Shown: piece by piece, positions 668-63,285 of the stretch | How positions within the stretch are numbered: position 1 is the stretch's first letter | Layout of the letters: the number at the start of each line of letters is the position of its first letter | Assembly (NCBI GenBank): GCA_963778665.1 | Contig: CAVZVG010000003.1 | Location: forward strand, 128,813-192,812 | DNA: 64,000 nt | Source of the DNA: an uncultured Gammaproteobacteria bacterium | Lineage (GTDB): Bacteria > Pseudomonadota > Gammaproteobacteria > JBBQDK01 | Direction of reading: 5' to 3' | Notes under the pieces: generated by a model | What the model saw: the letters and a program-made list of their open reading frames with translations, nothing else | Told to the model about the DNA's origin: nothing | The model's database searches: none | Position numbers and translations under genes: made by a program

Positions 668-1246
668 ATGCCAGACAGCCAGTTACCCGACACGCCGGCG
701 CAATCCAGCCCGGACAGCATCCTGGACTTCTGGTTCTCGGCGCCGGTCCGCCCGCTGTGGTTCAAGTCCACGCCTGAATTCGATGCCGAGCTGCGCCGAC
801 GCTATGCGGATACCTGGCAGGCGGCGCGGCGCGGCGAACTCGGCGCGTGGGAAAGCTCGGCAAACGGCGCGCTGGCACTGGTGATCGTGCTCGATCAGTT
901 TCCCCTCAACATGTATCGCGACCGCCCCGAGGCCTTCGCCACCGAGGCCGCCTCGCGCGATGTAGCGCGCCGCGCCATCGCGCACGGTTTCGATACCGGC
1001 CTCGACAACAGCCGACGGGTCTTTTTGTATTTGCCCTTCATGCACAGCGAAGATCCCGCCGATCAGGATTACTCGGTGCAACTGTTCGCGCAGCCGGGCA
1101 TGGAAGACACGCTCAAATGGGCGCGGCATCATCGCGACATCGTGCGGCGCTTCGGCCGCTTTCCGCATCGCAATGCCGTGCTGGGCCGCGCCAGCAGTGC
1201 CGCGGAAATCGCCTATCTGGAATCCGAGGCGGCGTTCCATGGCTGA
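668..1246 (+). CDS. DUF924 family protein
   Basis: 192 aa. Motifs LDQFPLNMYR, YLPFMHSE and RFGRFPHRNAVLGR match my recollection of the DUF924 family. Stop overlaps the sprT start (ATGGCTGA). Confidence 0.55.
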   Translation: MPDSQLPDTPAQSSPDSILDFWFSAPVRPLWFKSTPEFDAELRRRYADTWQAARRGELGAWESSANGALALVIVLDQFPLNMYRDRPEAFATEAASRDVARRAIAHGFDTGLDNSRRVFLYLPFMHSEDPADQDYSVQLFAQPGMEDTLKWARHHRDIVRRFGRFPHRNAVLGRASSAAEIAYLESEAAFHG

Positions 1247-1829
1247 CTGCGGATCATCAGGCGGCACGGGGTTTGTGCTGTCAGCCGTGGAAAAACTCCG
1301 TCCCATCGATGCCGGCCGACAGCAGCAGGTCATCGCCTACACGCAGGCCTGCCTGGCACGCGCCGCCGCGCTGTACGGGCGCAAACTGCCATCGGTGGAG
1401 GTGCTGTTCGATCTGCGCGGTCAGGCCGCCGGCCAGTTCCGCTGGACGGCGCGGACCCGGCAATGCGTGATTCGCTACAACCCGTGGGTGTTCGCCGCCG
1501 ACTTCGAGCATCATCTGCACGACACCGTGGTGCATGAAGTCGCGCACTACCTCGTGTATCGCCTGCACGGTGCGCGTACCCGACCGCATGGCGCGGAATG
1601 GCGACGCGTGATGCAGGACTTCGGTATCAAACCCAAAGCCACCGGCCGTTACACGCTGCATGGCGTGCCTGTGCGGCGCCAGCAGCGGCACGCCTACCGC
1701 TGCGCGTGTCGCACCCACGAACTCACCAGCACCCGCCATAACCGTCAGCAGCAGGGCAGTGCGTATGTCTGCCGCCGCTGCGGCGAGCCCTTGCAGGCCG
1801 TTGCTTCGCCGGAGGCTCAGTGTGGTTAA
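1239..1829 (+). CDS. sprT: SprT family zinc metalloprotease
   Basis: HEVAH zinc motif; HGAEW motif; C-terminal zinc ribbon YRCACRTHELTSTRHNR...YVCRRCGEPL, collinear with the E. coli SprT C-terminus. ATG at 1239 overlaps the upstream stop; the ORF-track start 1173 is an upstream extension. Confidence 0.8.
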   Translation: MADCGSSGGTGFVLSAVEKLRPIDAGRQQQVIAYTQACLARAAALYGRKLPSVEVLFDLRGQAAGQFRWTARTRQCVIRYNPWVFAADFEHHLHDTVVHEVAHYLVYRLHGARTRPHGAEWRRVMQDFGIKPKATGRYTLHGVPVRRQQRHAYRCACRTHELTSTRHNRQQQGSAYVCRRCGEPLQAVASPEAQCG

Positions 1830-2104: not shown

Positions 2105-2515
2105 TCATCCGCTCATGATGCGCGGCCAGCGGTCATGCACCGCATCGGCCATTTCGGGTTCCACCGTCACCACATAGATGCGCCGTTCGTGCGCGTCGCG
2201 CGCGACCAGTCCCTGAATCCATTGTCCCCTGGTCAAGTCGTACCAATGCGAATGACCTTCCAGATCCTTCTCCATGAAACTCTTGACGGGAATCTTCACC
2301 GGGATCGGAAACCACTTGTCCCAACGGCCCGCATAGATCGAATCGAGCCGCGCCCAGCCGCCGAGCGGCAGTTGGCCGGCCTGCTCCCTGCGCCGTCCCC
2401 AGGGCAACAGTTCGACATGCCCGTCCTTGGCCTGCACCGGCAGCGCCGCCTTCGGATTGGGGAAATAGACACGGATGTCCGCGCCCTGATACGTGTAATA
2501 CACACCGCCACACAT
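2105..2515 (-). CDS. SOS-response-associated peptidase (SRAP/YedK)-like protein, short form
   Basis: Starts MCGG (Cys2, as in SRAP MCGR). C-terminal YVVTVEPEMADAVHDRWPRIM matches the SRAP motif ...IHDRMPVIL. Only 136 aa versus ~220 aa typical. Confidence 0.45.
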   Translation of the reverse strand: MCGGVYYTYQGADIRVYFPNPKAALPVQAKDGHVELLPWGRRREQAGQLPLGGWARLDSIYAGRWDKWFPIPVKIPVKSFMEKDLEGHSHWYDLTRGQWIQGLVARDAHERRIYVVTVEPEMADAVHDRWPRIMSG

Positions 2516-2542: not shown

Positions 2543-2953
2543 TTACCGTCGCAATGCGGCGTCATCCCCAAGATTATCCTCCTGAAGTCGATAAACAATC
2601 TCCCCTCTCCCGCGAGCGGGAGAGGGGTCGGGGGAGAGGGCAAGGCGTATCCTTTCCAGCACAGAATCCATCTGCAGCATCACCTCGTTATTCCAGAACC
2701 GCAACAGGCGATAGCCTTGGGTACGCAGCCACGCATCCCGATACTGGTCATAGGCTATCCGCACGTTATGTTGCCCGCCGTCGAGTTCAATGATCAGTTG
2801 TCGCTCGACACTGACAAAATCGACGATGTAGCGGCCTATGGGTTTTTGCCGCTTGAATTTAACACCCATAAAGCGATGCGCTCGCAGGTGATACCATAAC
2901 CGCTGCTCGGCTATTGTTGGGTTGCTGCGCATGGTTTTGGCGTGGTGCAGCAT
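2543..2953 (-). CDS. DUF559 endonuclease-domain protein (Vsr-like fold)
   Basis: Motifs TIAEQRLWYHLRAHRFMGVKFKRQKPIGRYIVDFVSVERQLIIELDGGQH and LRFWNNEV. The 3' end reads into a GEG-type repeat element, as is common for DUF559 genes. Confidence 0.7.
   Translation of the reverse strand: MLHHAKTMRSNPTIAEQRLWYHLRAHRFMGVKFKRQKPIGRYIVDFVSVERQLIIELDGGQHNVRIAYDQYRDAWLRTQGYRLLRFWNNEVMLQMDSVLERIRLALSPDPSPARGRGEIVYRLQEDNLGDDAALRR
2600..2645. repeat. family E palindromic repeat (CCCCTCTCCCGCGAGCGGGAGAGGGG type)
   Basis: Perfect GC palindrome. Same family at 2990-3160, 5707-5747, 14944-15000 and 20345-20376. Confidence 0.6.
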
Positions 2954-3352: not shown

Positions 3353-4603
3353 CTAAATCGTTTGCCGGTGGCCGTGCGGTTTCCACGCCGGCGCGATGAC
3401 GTTGGGCATGGACGAGCGGTTCAACAGACGCGCCGGCGCCAGAGTGAATTCGCCGTAACGCTGGTTGATGCGATCCATCACGGCATGTACCGCGTGGGCG
3501 TTGCTCGGCGAGTCGTCGAACAGTTCGCGCTGTTGATCGGCGGGACGCGGATCGAGCGCGGTCACCTGTACCTGATGGATGCCGCGGCCCTGCCAGTAGT
3601 GATCGAGCACCGCCTCGCACAGCGTCATGATGGCGTGACTGTCGGCGCAGGGCAGCGCGGTTTTGAACTTGCCGCCGATCCAGCCGTCGTTGCAGCGCAG
3701 GCCGATGAAGAAGCGGCTTGCCTGCATGCCGTGACGGCGCAGCCGCGCGGCGACTTTTTCGCTCATGTGCAGAAGATAGGTGGTCAGTACTTCGCGCGCC
3801 CGCGTGTCGGGCGGCACCACCTTGCCGTGGCCGATGGATTTGGGCGCCGGGACATTGATGTGCATGGGCTCCGGGTCCTGTCCAAGACACATGTGCCAGA
3901 TGCGCCGGCCGGGATTGCCGAAGCGCTGCGCCAGCACGCTGATCGGCAGTTTCGCCATGTCGCCGCAGGTATACACGCCATGTTTGGCGAGAAAGCCGCC
4001 GATGCCCTCGGCGATGCCGCACAGTTCCGTGACGCGCGCCGTGCTCAGTCGCTCGCGCGCTTCCCACGGCGGAATGATCGTCAGCCCGTTGGGCTTGTCG
4101 AGTTTGGCGGCATATTTTGCCGTGGTCTTGTCGCCGCTTACGCCGATCGAACACAACACGCCGGAGGCGGCGAATACCACTTCCTTGACTTGCTGCGCGA
4201 TCTGCTCCGGCGTACCCAACAGGCGTTGGCAGCGCGTCACGTCGAGAAACGCCTCGTCCACCGAGAACACCTCGATATCCGGCGTGATGCTCTGCAGCGC
4301 ATCCATGATGGCGGTGGAGACCGCCGCATAACGCTGCGGCCGCGCCGGGCATTGGATGAGATCGGGACACAGCCGTCGCGCTTCCTTCAGGCGCATGCCG
4401 GTCTTGATGCCGTAGGCGCGCGCCTCGTACGAACAGGTGATGATGCAGGTGCCTTGCAGGCCGTTGGTCACGGCCACCGGGCGGCCGCGCCATTCGGGAC
4501 GGTCGCGCTGTTCGATGGACGCGAAGAAGGCGTTCATGTCGACGAGGATGATGGCGCGCGGCCAGATGTCAGGATGTGCGGCGGTCATGGCGGAGTCACT
4601 CAT
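3353..4603 (-). CDS. dinB: Y-family DNA polymerase (Pol IV/DinB-like), overlapping lexA
   Basis: N-terminal LVDMNAFFASIE and FSVDEAFLDV retain catalytic Asp/Asp-Glu equivalents of E. coli DinB D8/D103/E104, so this is not a catalytically dead ImuB. 416 aa. 8-nt overlap with the lexA stop. Alternative start at 4588. Confidence 0.75.
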   Translation of the reverse strand: MSDSAMTAAHPDIWPRAIILVDMNAFFASIEQRDRPEWRGRPVAVTNGLQGTCIITCSYEARAYGIKTGMRLKEARRLCPDLIQCPARPQRYAAVSTAIMDALQSITPDIEVFSVDEAFLDVTRCQRLLGTPEQIAQQVKEVVFAASGVLCSIGVSGDKTTAKYAAKLDKPNGLTIIPPWEARERLSTARVTELCGIAEGIGGFLAKHGVYTCGDMAKLPISVLAQRFGNPGRRIWHMCLGQDPEPMHINVPAPKSIGHGKVVPPDTRAREVLTTYLLHMSEKVAARLRRHGMQASRFFIGLRCNDGWIGGKFKTALPCADSHAIMTLCEAVLDHYWQGRGIHQVQVTALDPRPADQQRELFDDSPSNAHAVHAVMDRINQRYGEFTLAPARLLNRSSMPNVIAPAWKPHGHRQTI

Positions 4604-5186
4604 AGGTGCGCATCTGCCCGACCAGCACGCCCTGGATCTGCACGCGCTCGGCCGCGTAGCGCAGCGAAGTCATGGTGTGGTTGGCGGGAATCAATTCGAT
4701 CTCGCCGTTGCGGTGCTGCTTGATGTGTTTCAAGGTCACTTCGTCGTTGTCGATGAGTGCCACCACGACCTCGCCGTCGCGCGCGGCGTCGCGCTTTTCG
4801 ATGACCACCAGGTCGCCGTCGAGAATGCCCGCCTCGATCATCGACTCGCCGCTGACCTGCAAGACGAAGCGCTTCGGTCCATTGAACAGCGCATTGATGT
4901 CCAGCGACTGCTGATCGGCGATCGCCTCGATCGGCCGACCCGCCGCGATGCGTCCGAGCAAGGGCAGGGCATCCGCCGCGGGCGGCGTCGCGAGGCCGAT
5001 GCCGCGCCAGCCACGCTGCCGTTGCACATAACCCTTGTCGGTCAGCGACTGGATGTAACGATGCACCGTGCCCTTGGACTGCACGCCCACCGCCGCGCCG
5101 ATTTCGGTCAGCGTCGGGCCGTGTTCGTGGTGGTCGAGATGAACGCGGACAAAATCCAGGATGCGGCTTTCCAGTGTCGTGAGCAT
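4596..5186 (-). CDS. lexA: LexA repressor (S24 peptidase)
   Basis: HTH N-domain (MLTTLESRILDFVR...) and C-terminal S24 domain with the Ser (GESM) and Lys (VTLKHI) dyad context. GGAG Shine-Dalgarno 7 nt upstream of ATG 5186; the ORF-track start 5216 is an extension. Confidence 0.8.
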   Translation of the reverse strand: MLTTLESRILDFVRVHLDHHEHGPTLTEIGAAVGVQSKGTVHRYIQSLTDKGYVQRQRGWRGIGLATPPAADALPLLGRIAAGRPIEAIADQQSLDINALFNGPKRFVLQVSGESMIEAGILDGDLVVIEKRDAARDGEVVVALIDNDEVTLKHIKQHRNGEIELIPANHTMTSLRYAAERVQIQGVLVGQMRTYE

Positions 5187-5211
5187 GGGCAGGTCTCCAG
5201 GGTGTGAAAAC

Positions 5212-5240
5212 AGCATAGAGAACTTTTGGAGAACTTACAA
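5212..5240 (-). promoter_or_regulatory. candidate lexA promoter (-35 TTGTAA, 17-bp spacer, -10 TATGCT) with a direct-repeat operator GTTC-N7-GTTC in the spacer
   Basis: Minus-strand reading: TTGTAAGTTCtccaaaaGTTCtcTATGCT. The 8-bp direct repeat AAGTTCTC x2 sits ~34 bp upstream of the lexA ATG. No CTGT-N8-ACAG box is present. Confidence 0.35.
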
Positions 5241-5557: not shown

Positions 5558-5650
5558 GAGCGCCTGACAAACAGCGATCACCACGGAGGACACGGAGAAA
5601 TTTTATTAAAGGAACTCCTTAATTGCAAAGCCGTCATGCCCGCGAAGGCG
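5558..5650. repeat. family A half-element plus family G hairpin (CATGCCCGCGAAGGCGGGCATC)
   Basis: GCGCCTGACAAACAGCGATCACCACGGAGGACACGGAGAAATTTTAT is near-identical to 1890-1945. The hairpin recurs at 10340-10356 and 15072-15099. Together they create spurious ORF 5555..5797. Confidence 0.55.
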
Positions 5651-6029
5651 GGCATCCAAGTTTTTCAGGCGGCCTGGATTATTCGCTACGCGTTACCCTT
5701 CGCGCCGCCCTCTCCCCAATCCCTCTCCCGCAAGCGGGGAGAGCAAAATTCGGCGGGGCGTAGCCGGCGCGGACAAATAAATCAGAGCTTCCTTTAATGA
5801 CGGTTTTCGGATTGGTCAGGGGTTGCTTGGTATTTCCTGTTCACTGATATCACGCGCGTTGCAAGCGCGACGGATCAACGAGGTTTCTTGATAAACCGGC
5901 TCACTGACTTATACTGACCGGCGTACAAGGGTAAAAACAAACGGGATATTGATTGATATCCGACAACGGTCACCGGTCCATGTTTATTGCAAACCCGGGC
6001 TGCAATCAGGGCGCTGACTTGGATCAGGC

Positions 6030-62790: not shown

Positions 62791-63014
62791 AAATCGGCCG
62801 GATCGAGGTCCATGACCTGTTTCGGGGCGGACTATTGCCCGGATCGGGGGGTGATCGAGGGGAAAAAGAACTGGATATCGCGCGGAGTTGGTGTATATTG
62901 GCGGCGTTGGAGTGCACTTCTTGTGGTCGGTTCGGTATTCAATCCCGTAATTTTTCTTCCAAGAATGAACTGCAAACCAACGCATTTCTACTTTTATTAT
63001 TACGAGGTATTACC

Positions 63015-63218
63015 GTGACGACAGGAACAGTAAAGTGGTTTAACGATGCCAAAGGCTTCGGCTTCATTACCCCGCAGGACGGCAGCAAGGATGTATTCGT
63101 TCATCACTCCGCCATCCAGGGCAGCGGCTTCAAGAGCCTGGCCGAAGGCCAGCAGGTAACGTTTGATGTCGAACAGGGCCCGAAAGGTCCGTCAGCCGTA
63201 AACGTAAAACCGGCCTGA
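63015..63218 (+). CDS. cspA: cold-shock protein (CspA family)
   Basis: [15 protein letters not shown] (RNP1) and VFVHH (RNP2). GTG start with GAGGT Shine-Dalgarno. The 225-aa track ORF 62541..63218 is an upstream extension. Confidence 0.85.
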
Positions 63219-63252
63219 ACCCACCGCTCTGCGCAAGCAGAATTGGGTACTG

Positions 63253-63285
63253 AAGACCCCGTCGCAAGGCGGGGTCTTTTTTTGT
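63253..63285 (+). terminator. rho-independent terminator after cspA
   Basis: GACCCCG..CGGGGTC hairpin followed by a T7 run. Confidence 0.6.

What the first reader, a model, noticed from the sequence alone, without database searches (positions are those of the whole stretch)
5186..5240. lexA promoter carries a GTTC-N7-GTTC direct-repeat operator rather than a gammaproteobacterial CTGT-N8-ACAG box
Read on the coding strand, the lexA upstream region is TTGTAA-GTTCtccaaaaGTTCtc-TATGCT. A near-consensus -35/-10 pair with a 17-bp spacer encloses an 8-bp direct repeat (AAGTTCTC x2) matching the GTTC-N7-GTTC LexA box known from Alphaproteobacteria. No CTGT-N8-ACAG palindrome occurs within 150 bp. The other genes in the window point to a gammaproteobacterial host. 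So this LexA may be a divergent lexA2-type paralogue with altered specificity, or an acquired lexA-polY cassette.
Basis: partly seen in the sequence, partly recalled or inferred. Interest (0 to 1): 0.55.

Follow-up and report, generated by a model that had tools for sequence, protein, structure and literature searches.

The report
Direct-repeat LexA operator in a gammaproteobacterium
The promoter of this lexA gene carries a GTTCTC-N5-GTTCTC direct repeat that is conserved upstream of related lexA genes in many non-enteric Gammaproteobacteria, so these bacteria appear to run their DNA-damage response with a repressor site of the kind known from Alphaproteobacteria, not the E. coli kind.

Summary
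On the minus strand, TTGTAA (5240-5235), GTTCTCCAAAAGTTCTC (5234-5218) and TATGCT (5217-5212) precede a LexA gene (4596-5186). That gene overlaps a Y-family polymerase gene (3353-4603) by 8 bp. The hexamers match consensus only 4/6 each, so "near-consensus" is overstated.

Counting inside the window cannot show significance for GTTC-N7-GTTC (1 found, 1.7 expected). Comparison with relatives does. 29 of 45 gammaproteobacterial loci encoding related LexAs have this repeat within 150 bp upstream of lexA (P about 2e-61). None has CTGT-N8-ACAG there. The -35 / operator / -10 layout is conserved. The first base of the half-site co-varies with one recognition-helix residue: G in 114/118 half-sites with Lys/Arg, 3/32 with Gln/His/Val. 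In relatives the same box lies next to uvrA, umuDC and a DEAD/MZB helicase.

Best reading: this is an autoregulatory LexA operator filling the promoter spacer of a lexA-polY operon. It belongs to a LexA lineage widespread in Methylococcales, Thiotrichales-like and Chromatiales-like Gammaproteobacteria and close to alphaproteobacterial LexA.

The "lexA2 paralogue or acquired cassette" idea is only partly supported. The cassette occurs on one plasmid and sporadically in Thiodiazotropha. Whether this genome has a second lexA could not be tested.

The parts
5235..5240 (-). -35-like hexamer TTGTAA (4/6 match to TTGACA), directly abutting the first half-site
   Evidence: A TTGnnn hexamer at the same offset is conserved in at least 14 related loci. 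It was not called by the consensus scan.
5218..5234 (-). Operator O1: GTTCTCCAAAAGTTCTC, a direct repeat of GTTCTC with an 11-bp period that fills the whole 17-nt promoter spacer
   Evidence: Exact pattern found once against 0.00 expected. It scores 26.9 bits on the motif matrix and is the only hit of 12 bits or more in the window. The same element is upstream of lexA in 29/45 gamma loci, P about 2e-61. It co-varies with the LexA helix.
5212..5217 (-). -10-like hexamer TATGCT (4/6 match), starting immediately after the second half-site
   Evidence: A conserved TATnCT follows GTTCTC in relatives.
5192..5206 (-). Degenerate remnant of a second, inverted operator (O2): CACACCCTGGAGACC. Relatives have GAAC-N5-GAGAAC here, overlapping the Shine-Dalgarno sequence. 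The window keeps only GGAGA (5198-5194) as the Shine-Dalgarno sequence.
   Evidence: L001 has GAACGTCTGGAGAAC, L004 GAACGTATGGAGAAC and L006 GAACGCCAGGAGAAC at the same position. There is no motif-matrix hit of 12 bits or more here in the window.
4596..5186 (-). lexA, 196 aa: winged-helix DNA-binding domain (recognition helix S37-K-G-T-V-H-R-Y-I-Q), Ala82-Gly83 cleavage site, Ser115/Lys153 dyad
   Evidence: TIGR00498 153 bits against a cutoff of 111. Pfam PF01726 plus PF00717. Invariant columns in alignments A1 and A3.
3353..4603 (-). Y-family DNA polymerase, 416 aa. Its start overlaps the lexA stop by 8 bp. It is DinB-like but scores below every NCBIfam Pol IV cutoff. The DMNAFFAS and SVDEAF motifs are kept, there is a QQRELF clamp-type motif, and the C-terminus gives a weak DUF4113 match.
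   Evidence: It lies immediately downstream of lexA in 13 of the species-representative genome loci, plus L082, L083, L092 and L190, at 50-70% identity.
2543..2953 (-). DUF559 ORF lying between polY and the third cassette gene. It is not part of the cassette in other genomes and is probably an insertion.
   Evidence: Pfam PF04480, 138 bits. It is absent from the other cassette loci.
2105..2515 (-). 136-aa protein of unknown fold (starts MCGG...). It is a facultative third gene of the lexA-polY cassette.
   Evidence: Homologues directly follow polY in L082 (83%), L018 (64%), L050 (44%) and L083. No Pfam, PDB or SRAP match was found.

Best explanation
The repeat is the autoregulatory operator of a lexA-polY operon.

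Proposed mechanism:
1. A LexA dimer binds the two GTTCTC half-sites, which lie in direct orientation 11 bp apart (one helical turn). These fill the 17-nt spacer between the -35 and -10 hexamers, so bound LexA keeps RNA polymerase off the promoter.
2. After DNA damage, RecA-ssDNA filaments stimulate LexA self-cleavage at Ala82-Gly83 by the Ser115/Lys153 dyad.
3. The operon is then derepressed, and new LexA plus a translesion polymerase are made.

The box is not a peculiarity of this gene. It is the SOS box of a whole LexA lineage present in many non-enteric Gammaproteobacteria (Methylococcales, Sedimenticola/Thiodiazotropha, Methylophaga, Thiotrichaceae, Granulosicoccaceae, Ectothiorhodospiraceae, Thiohalomonadales). 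That lineage shares the S-[KR]-x-x-x-H-[RK] recognition helix with alphaproteobacterial LexA.

What is shown: the sequence, its position, its conservation, the protein-DNA co-variation, and the box next to SOS genes in relatives. What is inferred: binding, repression and RecA-dependent cleavage.
For: Anatomy. The operator fills the promoter spacer. lexA and polY overlap by 8 bp.

LexA identity. It passes the TIGR00498 cutoff. The Ala-Gly site and the Ser and Lys residues are invariant in the alignments.

Conservation.
- 29/45 gamma loci have a GTTC-N7-GTTC or GAAC-N7-GAAC repeat within 150 bp upstream of lexA. The background is 10 in 470 kb, giving a binomial P of 2e-61.
- None of these loci has CTGT-N8-ACAG upstream of lexA.
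- Motif-matrix hits above 20 bits lie almost only upstream of lexA.
- The layout cTTGaaa|GTTCTC-N5-GTTCTC|TATnCT is shared by at least 14 loci.
- Many loci carry a second, inverted copy over the Shine-Dalgarno sequence.

Co-variation. With Lys/Arg at helix position 2, the first half-site base is G in 114/118 cases. With Gln/His/Val it is G in 3/32.

Regulon in relatives.
- Shared control regions with umuDC: L084 at 28.7 bits and L019.
- Shared control region with uvrA in L030.
- Sites next to a DEAD/MZB helicase in L016, L132 and L207-216.
- A site between an SRAP gene and a polymerase gene in L107.

Kinship. The window LexA is 40-44% identical to Sphingomonadales LexAs, which carry GTTC-N7-GTTC upstream of their own genes, and 36% identical to E. 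coli LexA. In the neighbour-joining tree, alpha LexAs sit among the gamma clades.

Known background. GTTC-N7-GTTC is the reported alphaproteobacterial LexA box (PMC8565304; PMC9578287).
Against: - There are no binding or expression data.
- The window promoter matches consensus only 8/12 and was not called by the scan.
- The window lacks the second operator that most close relatives have.
- No other site occurs in the 64 kb, so a regulon in this genome is not shown.
- The motif matrix was trained on lexA-upstream sites.
- The co-variation rests on about four independent lineages, not 32 independent events.
- No recA or ssb promoter with the box was found. Among 120 metagenome matches to the exact motif, about 105 look like chance or coding hits.
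Confidence: 0.85

Rival explanations
1. This is an accessory, horizontally moving lexA-polY cassette. The LexA would be a second copy that mainly controls its own translesion-polymerase operon, while another LexA runs the host SOS regulon.
For: - The cassette lexA-polIV-'MCGG' protein is on a 320-kb Methylophaga thalassica plasmid next to a GIY-YIG gene, an ars operon and a Tn3 transposase.
- In Thiodiazotropha a different LexA clade is the conserved chromosomal copy in every named species. LexAs of the window's type appear only sporadically there, once with polY (L018) and once beside a phage integrase (L206).
- The flanks of the cassette are not conserved between loci.
- polY is more conserved than LexA: 55-70% against 44-59%.
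- A variant without the DNA-binding domain (L156) keeps the same operator and so needs a LexA supplied in trans.
- No other site was found in the window.
Against: - No integrase, transposase or plasmid gene lies near the window cassette. GC content there is like its surroundings.
- LexAs with and without polY are interleaved in the tree and mostly cluster by host family.
- Among the 80 loci kept from the scan of species-representative genomes, the two gamma LexA clades have largely complementary host ranges.
- The nearest LexA from a named MAG is Thiohalomonadales, congruent with the EF-G neighbours.
- IMG/VR holds no close relative; the best is 44%.
- Both clades use the same box, unlike the diverged motifs of known lexA1/lexA2 pairs.
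- Co-residence of two LexAs in one assembly was sought and not found.
Confidence: 0.35
2. The repeat is conserved only as promoter spacer sequence, or it is the site of some other regulator. LexA would not bind it.
For: It lies entirely inside the promoter, where conservation could have other causes. There are no binding data.
Against: - A second copy in inverted orientation lies outside the promoter, over the Shine-Dalgarno sequence, in many relatives.
- The same element sits next to umuDC, uvrA and a helicase.
- Half-site identity tracks a residue of the LexA recognition helix.
- Spacer sequences of sigma-70 promoters are not normally conserved across bacterial orders.
- Alphaproteobacterial LexA is reported to bind exactly this spacing (PMC8565304, PMC9578287).
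Confidence: 0.05
3. The match is a chance occurrence of GTTC-N7-GTTC.
For: One match in 64 kb is what shuffles give: 1.72 expected.
Against: The extended 12-base repeat has an expectation of 0.00. The element recurs at the same place in 29/45 independent loci.
Confidence: 0.01

Closest known systems
Alphaproteobacterial LexA box GTTC-N7-GTTC (Rhodobacter, Caulobacter, Rhizobium; cited in PMC8565304, PMC9578287, PMC3323433)
   Same: Direct repeat of GTTC with a 7-nt spacer and 11-bp period, located in the lexA promoter. The LexA recognition helix shares S-K-x-x-V-H-R. Sphingomonadales loci fetched here carry the box upstream of lexA.
   Different: - The host is gammaproteobacterial.
- The half-site is extended to GTTCTC, whereas the alpha loci here read GTTC[CT][CG].
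- Sites often come as an inverted pair of direct repeats: O1 in the promoter spacer and O2 over the Shine-Dalgarno sequence.
- Protein identity to alpha LexA is only 40-44%.
Acidobacterium capsulatum LexA (an alpha-type box outside Alphaproteobacteria, ascribed to lateral acquisition; Mazon et al. 2006, listed in the references of PMC3323433; paper not read)
   Same: It is a precedent for a GTTC-N7-GTTC-type LexA outside the Alphaproteobacteria.
   Different: Here the box belongs to a broad, diversified set of gammaproteobacterial lineages, not to one acquisition. The Acidobacteria loci fetched here showed no such box within 150 bp of lexA.
lexA2-imuA-imuB-dnaE2 cassettes of Pseudomonas putida and Xanthomonas (two LexA regulons in one cell; mentioned in PMC9578287)
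   Same: lexA is co-transcribed with error-prone polymerase genes and is self-regulated.
   Different: The partner here is a single DinB-like Y-family polymerase, sometimes with a 136-aa protein, and there is no imuA, imuB or dnaE2. A second lexA has not been shown. In the known pairs the two LexAs have different motifs; here both gamma clades share one motif.
umuDC operon and Acinetobacter UmuDAb (from general knowledge, not tested here)
   Same: An S24 self-cleaving protein is encoded immediately upstream of, and translationally coupled to, a Y-family polymerase. One metagenomic variant (L156) has lost the DNA-binding domain and looks like umuD-umuC.
   Different: The window protein is a full LexA that passes TIGR00498. 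The polymerase scores 260 bits on a Pol IV model against 99 bits on UmuC.
Canonical gamma/betaproteobacterial SOS box CTGT-N8-ACAG
   Same: It has the same role, as a LexA operator in the lexA promoter.
   Different: It is a palindrome, not a direct repeat. It is absent from the window and from all 45 related lexA upstream regions. The E. coli LexA helix reads S-P-N-A-A-E-E.

Membership tests
LexA repressor (TIGR00498) | Whole-protein score above the curated equivalog cutoff | tested here: met
   153.1 bits against a cutoff of 110.95.
LexA repressor (TIGR00498) | N-terminal LexA-type winged-helix DNA-binding domain plus C-terminal S24 peptidase domain | tested here: met
   PF01726 39.6 bits (cutoff 23.7) and PF00717 91.9 bits.
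LexA repressor (TIGR00498) | Ala-Gly cleavage site and Ser/Lys catalytic dyad | tested here: met
   A82-G83, S115 and K153 are invariant or nearly so in alignments A1 and A3, which include E. coli LexA.
LexA repressor (TIGR00498) | RecA-stimulated self-cleavage and operator binding | not testable with these tools
   This needs biochemistry. The only indirect support is the helix/half-site co-variation.
Alpha-type LexA box (GTTC-N7-GTTC direct repeat) | Two GTTC in direct orientation separated by 7 nt in the lexA promoter | tested here: met
   5220-5234 on the minus strand. It is conserved in 29/45 related loci.
Alpha-type LexA box (GTTC-N7-GTTC direct repeat) | The same box upstream of other SOS genes | tested here: inconclusive
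   There is no other site in the 64-kb window and the rest of the genome is unavailable. In relatives with the sister LexA clade, the box lies next to uvrA, umuDC and a helicase. No recA site was seen.
Alpha-type LexA box (GTTC-N7-GTTC direct repeat) | LexA protein related to alphaproteobacterial LexA | tested here: inconclusive
   Identity is 40-44% to Sphingomonadales LexA and 36% to E. coli LexA. The S-K-x-x-V-H-R helix is shared. The neighbour-joining tree places alpha LexA among the gamma clades but has no support values.
Alpha-type LexA box (GTTC-N7-GTTC direct repeat) | Host is an alphaproteobacterium | tested here: not met
   The EF-G neighbours and the LexA neighbours are Gammaproteobacteria.
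lexA2 mutagenesis cassette (lexA2-imuA-imuB-dnaE2) | lexA linked to imuA, imuB and dnaE2 | tested here: not met
   Downstream lie one DinB-like polymerase, a DUF559 ORF and a 136-aa protein.
lexA2 mutagenesis cassette (lexA2-imuA-imuB-dnaE2) | A second lexA with a different motif in the same genome | not testable with these tools
   Only the window is available. Look-ups of window proteins and of the 100%-identical EF-G entry in the assembly index found nothing.
umuDC | S24 protein without a DNA-binding domain, paired with UmuC | tested here: not met
   The DNA-binding domain is present. The polymerase scores 260 bits on Pol IV against 99 bits on UmuC. The relative L156 does have the form without the DNA-binding domain.
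Canonical gammaproteobacterial SOS box | CTGT-N8-ACAG palindrome upstream of lexA | tested here: not met
   No match in the window. No match in 45 related upstream regions.

The most novel reading that the evidence does not exclude
Two linked readings that the evidence does not exclude.

(a) A large part of the Gammaproteobacteria would run its housekeeping SOS response through a direct-repeat GTTCTC-N5-GTTCTC box inherited in common with the Alphaproteobacteria. The lineages concerned are Methylococcales, Sedimenticolaceae, Methylophagaceae, Thiotrichaceae, Granulosicoccaceae, Ectothiorhodospiraceae and Thiohalomonadales. The CTGT-N8-ACAG palindrome would then be a later invention inside the gamma/beta radiation, not the class-wide ancestral state. 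Lys/Arg38 of the recognition helix would read the G of GTTC.

(b) In the lexA-polY cassette the LexA would have two jobs: repressor before cleavage, and UmuD'-like accessory subunit of the co-translated polymerase after cleavage. This is suggested by the 8-bp gene overlap, the conserved pairing, the weak UmuC-type DUF4113 tail of the polymerase, and the L156 variant without a DNA-binding domain.
Probability: 0.3. Interest if true: 0.75.

Novelty: new variant of a known kind. Interest (0 to 1): 0.55.

Why it matters
LexA boxes are used to predict SOS regulons, mutagenesis potential and prophage or integron induction from genome sequence. Reviews in the searched library tie the GTTC-N7-GTTC direct repeat to the Alphaproteobacteria (PMC8565304, PMC3323433). 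The CTGT-N8-ACAG palindrome is the box expected for Gamma/Betaproteobacteria.

If the box found here is the working SOS operator of methanotrophs, sulfur-oxidising symbionts and related environmental Gammaproteobacteria, three things follow:
- Scans with the E. coli motif would miss SOS regulons in those groups.
- There would be a natural series of LexA/operator pairs (K/R with GTTCTC, Q/H/V with [TA]TTCTC) for studying how a dimeric repressor reads a direct repeat.
- The history of LexA motif change within the Proteobacteria would need to be redrawn.

The lexA-polY(-136 aa) cassette is also a compact, sometimes plasmid-borne, damage-inducible mutagenesis module.

Tried and rejected
- In-window enrichment of GTTC-N7-GTTC is not significant. 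A two-mismatch search is also at the chance level.
- The consensus promoter scan did not call the lexA promoter.
- Recovering the source genome to look for a second lexA or for recA failed. Exact look-ups of the window LexA, the DUF924 protein and the 100%-identical EF-G entry all returned nothing. Cluster look-ups gave no organism names.
- Showing two LexA clades in one Thiodiazotropha assembly failed. Two look-ups did not hit GCA_025655415.1 or JAIVEQ01.
- The metagenome scan for the exact 14-base motif was mostly chance or coding matches. About 15 of 120 lay next to lexA, polY or the helicase, and none next to recA or ssb.
- The 136-aa 'MCGG' protein looked SRAP-like by eye. This was not supported by Pfam, by a PDB profile search that gave only spurious RCC1-like repeat hits, or by hhalign against an SRAP (probability 0.5%). 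The single-sequence AlphaFold model was too poor for a fold search (pLDDT 41).
- P0009, a 143-aa S24-only protein 83% identical to the window LexA, looked like a second UmuD-like variant. It is a split, decaying lexA.
- IMG/VR viral contigs hold no close relative of this LexA; the best is 44%.
- Rfam and tRNA scans found nothing near the locus.
- Literature searches pairing this box with Gammaproteobacteria, Methylococcales or Methylophaga found nothing. The key J. Bacteriol. 2015 and Front. Mol. Biosci. 2016 papers are not held, so prior description cannot be excluded.
Full report
**What is in the sequence**

Read on the minus strand, bases 5240-5184 are TTGTAA-GTTCTCCAAAAGTTCTC-TATGCT-gttttcacaccctGGAGAcctgccc-ATG.
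- The two hexamers are 17 nt apart.
- The spacer consists entirely of two GTTCTC half-sites in direct orientation with an 11-bp period. AAGTTCTC occurs twice, at 5236-5229 and 5225-5218.

The ORF that follows (4596-5186, 196 aa from the ATG behind the GGAGA) is a LexA.
- It scores 153 bits on TIGR00498 against a cutoff of 111.
- It has the LexA DNA-binding and S24 peptidase Pfam domains.
- It keeps the Ala-Gly cleavage site and the Ser/Lys dyad in alignments that include E. coli LexA.

Its stop overlaps by 8 bp the start of a 416-aa Y-family polymerase (3353-4603).
- This polymerase is DinB-like but scores below every curated Pol IV cutoff. It scores 99 bits on UmuC.
- Its catalytic-type motifs DMNAFFAS and SVDEAF are present.
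- Its C-terminus gives a weak DUF4113 match.

- Each hexamer matches consensus only 4/6, and the consensus promoter scan did not call the site.
- GTTC-N7-GTTC on its own is expected 1.7 times per window by chance.

The extended GTTCTC-N5-GTTCTC is expected 0.00 times. No CTGT-N8-ACAG occurs anywhere in the window.

**Host**

EF-G from the window has a 100%-identical database entry on a 1.07-Mb contig. Its named relatives are Gammaproteobacteria, Thiohalobacteraceae, Woeseiaceae and Thiohalomonadaceae. The claim of a gammaproteobacterial host holds.

**Comparative test of the operator**

A protein search found LexA relatives at 92% identity and below. A scan of one genome per species returned 80 loci.
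- About 45 are from Gammaproteobacteria: Thiohalomonadales, Ectothiorhodospiraceae, Granulosicoccaceae, Methylophaga, Thiotrichaceae, Methylococcales, Sedimenticola and Thiodiazotropha.
- These are followed by Sphingomonadales and other Alphaproteobacteria at about 40% identity, then Acidobacteria.

- 29 of the 45 gamma loci have a GTTC-N7-GTTC or GAAC-N7-GAAC repeat within 150 bp upstream of lexA.
- The background is 10 matches in 470 kb of the same loci, or 0.3% per 150-bp window. The binomial P is 2e-61.
- None of these upstream regions has CTGT-N8-ACAG.

The aligned sites give GTTCTC-N5-GTTCT[CA]. A motif matrix built from them finds hits above 20 bits almost only just upstream of lexA, across about 500 kb of loci. 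In the window it finds only the lexA site, at 26.9 bits.

In at least 14 loci of the window's LexA clade the whole promoter unit is conserved: cTTGaaa | GTTCTC-N5-GTTCTC | TATnCT. That conservation, not hexamer quality, supports the promoter assignment.

Many relatives have a second copy in inverted orientation about 30 bp downstream, over the Shine-Dalgarno sequence (for example GAACGTCTGGAGAAC in L001). In the window this second site has decayed to CACACCCTGGAGACC (5206-5192).

**Evidence that LexA itself reads the repeat**

Across 55 loci, the residue after the conserved Ser of the recognition helix tracks the first base of the half-site.
- With Lys or Arg (S-K-G or S-R-G), the first base is G in 114 of 118 half-sites.
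- With Gln, His or Val (the Methylophaga group, L005, L010, L024), it is G in only 3 of 32. The repeat there reads TTTCTC or ATTCTC.

These are perhaps four independent changes, not 32. Still, the pattern is what a repressor co-evolving with its own operator should show.

The helix S-K-G-T-V-H-R-Y resembles S-K-S-G-V-H-R-L of the Sphingomonadales LexAs. Those LexAs carry GTTC-N7-GTTC upstream of their own genes. The E. coli helix reads S-P-N-A-A-E-E. Identity of the window LexA is 40-44% to the alpha proteins and 36% to E. coli LexA. A neighbour-joining tree without support values places the alpha LexAs among the gamma clades.

**Evidence that it is an SOS box**

The gamma LexAs fall into two clades that share the box.
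- The window's clade has the helix S-[KRQ]-G-x-x-H-R-Y.
- The second clade has S-R-G-S-L-H-K-H and is found in Methylococcales, Sedimenticola and Thiodiazotropha.

For the second clade, the box lies in control regions shared with classical damage-inducible genes:
- umuDC on the Methylotuvimicrobium KM1 chromosome (L019) and on a Methylobacter plasmid (L084, 28.7 bits);
- uvrA in a Methylobacter MAG (L030);
- a DEAD/Helicase_C/MZB helicase, which is divergent from lexA across a 66-bp gap holding two inverted sites in ten Thiodiazotropha assemblies. The same helicase carries sites in L016 and L132.

A metagenome scan for the exact 14-base motif returned 120 matches. Most look like chance or coding hits. 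About 15 lie at lexA, at lexA-polY, at the helicase, or between an SRAP gene and another Y-family polymerase gene. No recA or ssb site was seen.

**The cassette**

The polymerase directly follows lexA in 13 of the species-representative genome loci, plus L082, L083, L092 and L190, at 50-70% identity.

A 136-aa protein of unknown fold (window 2105-2515) follows the polymerase in L082, L018, L050 and the Methylophaga plasmid. In the window a DUF559 ORF lies between the polymerase and this gene.

One metagenome contig (L156) has the same promoter and operator in front of an S24 protein that lacks the DNA-binding domain, followed by the polymerase. That arrangement is umuDC-like. It hints that the S24 domain may serve the polymerase as well as repression.

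**Primary or accessory LexA?**

This could not be settled.

For an accessory, mobile cassette:
- It sits on a 320-kb Methylophaga thalassica plasmid next to a Tn3 transposase.
- In Thiodiazotropha the other clade is the conserved chromosomal LexA, and LexAs of the window's type are sporadic. One lies beside a phage integrase.
- The flanks of the cassette are not conserved between loci.

For a housekeeping LexA:
- No mobility gene lies near the window cassette, and there is no GC anomaly.
- LexAs with and without the polymerase are interleaved in the tree and cluster by host family.
- The two clades have largely complementary host ranges among the loci kept.
- The nearest LexA from a named MAG is Thiohalomonadales, congruent with the EF-G neighbours.
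- IMG/VR has nothing closer than 44%.
- Both clades use the same motif, unlike known lexA1/lexA2 pairs.

My estimate is roughly 60:40 in favour of a vertically inherited, possibly sole, LexA.

**Comparison with what is known**

The direct repeat GTTC-N7-GTTC is the reported alphaproteobacterial LexA box (PMC8565304; PMC9578287; PMC3323433). An Acidobacterium case has been ascribed to lateral acquisition (listed in the references of PMC3323433; the paper itself was not read).

I found no paper in the searchable library that reports this box for Gammaproteobacteria. Two central papers on LexA motif evolution are not held, so earlier description cannot be ruled out.

Relative to the alpha box, this is a variant:
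- the half-site is extended to GTTCTC;
- sites are frequently arranged as an inverted pair of direct repeats;
- the hosts are gammaproteobacterial;
- it is linked to a distinct polymerase cassette.

It fails the defining features of the lexA2-imuA-imuB-dnaE2 cassette, of umuDC, and of the canonical gamma SOS box.

**Verdict**

- The operator assignment is well supported by conservation, position, co-variation and neighbouring SOS genes. Binding and induction remain inferred.
- The paralogue/acquired reading is possible but not shown.
- Interest is moderate to good. The object is an ordinary kind of thing, a LexA operator. Its type and taxonomic spread appear to be undescribed and would change how SOS regulons are predicted in several environmentally important gammaproteobacterial orders.

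Noticed in passing
window 2105-2515 (-): 136-aa protein starting MCGG with no Pfam, PDB or SRAP match. It is conserved directly after the polymerase in L082 (83%), L018, L050 and the Methylophaga plasmid, so it is a facultative third gene of the lexA-polY cassette. Function unknown.
   Followed up: partly
window 2543-2953 (-), hairpin 2602-2627: A DUF559 ORF, with a GC-rich palindrome at its 3' end, sits between the polymerase and the 136-aa gene. It is absent from the other cassette loci and looks like an insertion.
   Followed up: partly
L156 1347-3056: A metagenome contig with the same TTG/operator/TAT promoter in front of a 145-aa S24 protein that has no DNA-binding domain (UmuD-like), followed by a polymerase 57% identical to the window's. 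It implies a LexA supplied in trans and a role for the S24 domain with the polymerase.
   Followed up: partly
L207-L216 and L224 (1-2600); L016 2193-4703; L132 10126-12617: A roughly 800-aa DEAD/Helicase_C/WHD_HRQ1/MZB helicase is divergently paired with lexA in Thiodiazotropha. It carries one or two GTTCTC-N5-GTTCTC sites in three independent contexts, so it is a likely conserved regulon member.
   Followed up: partly
L107 4550-6443: An SRAP-family gene (MCNRY...) and a second type of Y-family polymerase (31% identical to the window's) are divergently arranged with a TGTTCTCTTTTTGTTCTCT site between them.
   Followed up: no
L205 4001-6548; L206 144-3831: In a Thiodiazotropha MAG, a LexA of the window's clade is followed by a GMT-wHTH protein and a DUF5131 protein. 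In L206 it is preceded by a phage integrase. A single site lies just before its ATG. It looks like the repressor of a mobile element.
   Followed up: partly
L225 793-1383; L226: A close relative (83% identical) has lexA split into a 45-aa DNA-binding piece and a 143-aa S24 piece, with the cleavage site changed from AG to VG. This is a decaying copy.
   Followed up: partly
window 1173-1829 (+) and 668-1246 (+): A SprT-like zinc protease with its zinc ribbon, and a DUF924 protein, lie just beyond the cassette. No site was found near them.
   Followed up: no
window 5636-5655 (+): A GC-rich hairpin ATGCCCGCGAAGGCGGGCAT followed by a T run, in the 0.8-kb low-GC gap between lexA and the gltP-like transporter gene. 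It is terminator-like or REP-like.
   Followed up: no
window 62877-63282 (+): An Rfam cspA thermoregulator match (120 bits against a gathering score of 78).
   Followed up: no
L022, L037, L040, L041, L083 (upstream of lexA): Methylophaga-type LexAs (helix S-Q/H-G) have TTTCTC or ATTCTC repeats, sometimes three or four in tandem at an 11-bp period, in place of GTTCTC.
   Followed up: partly
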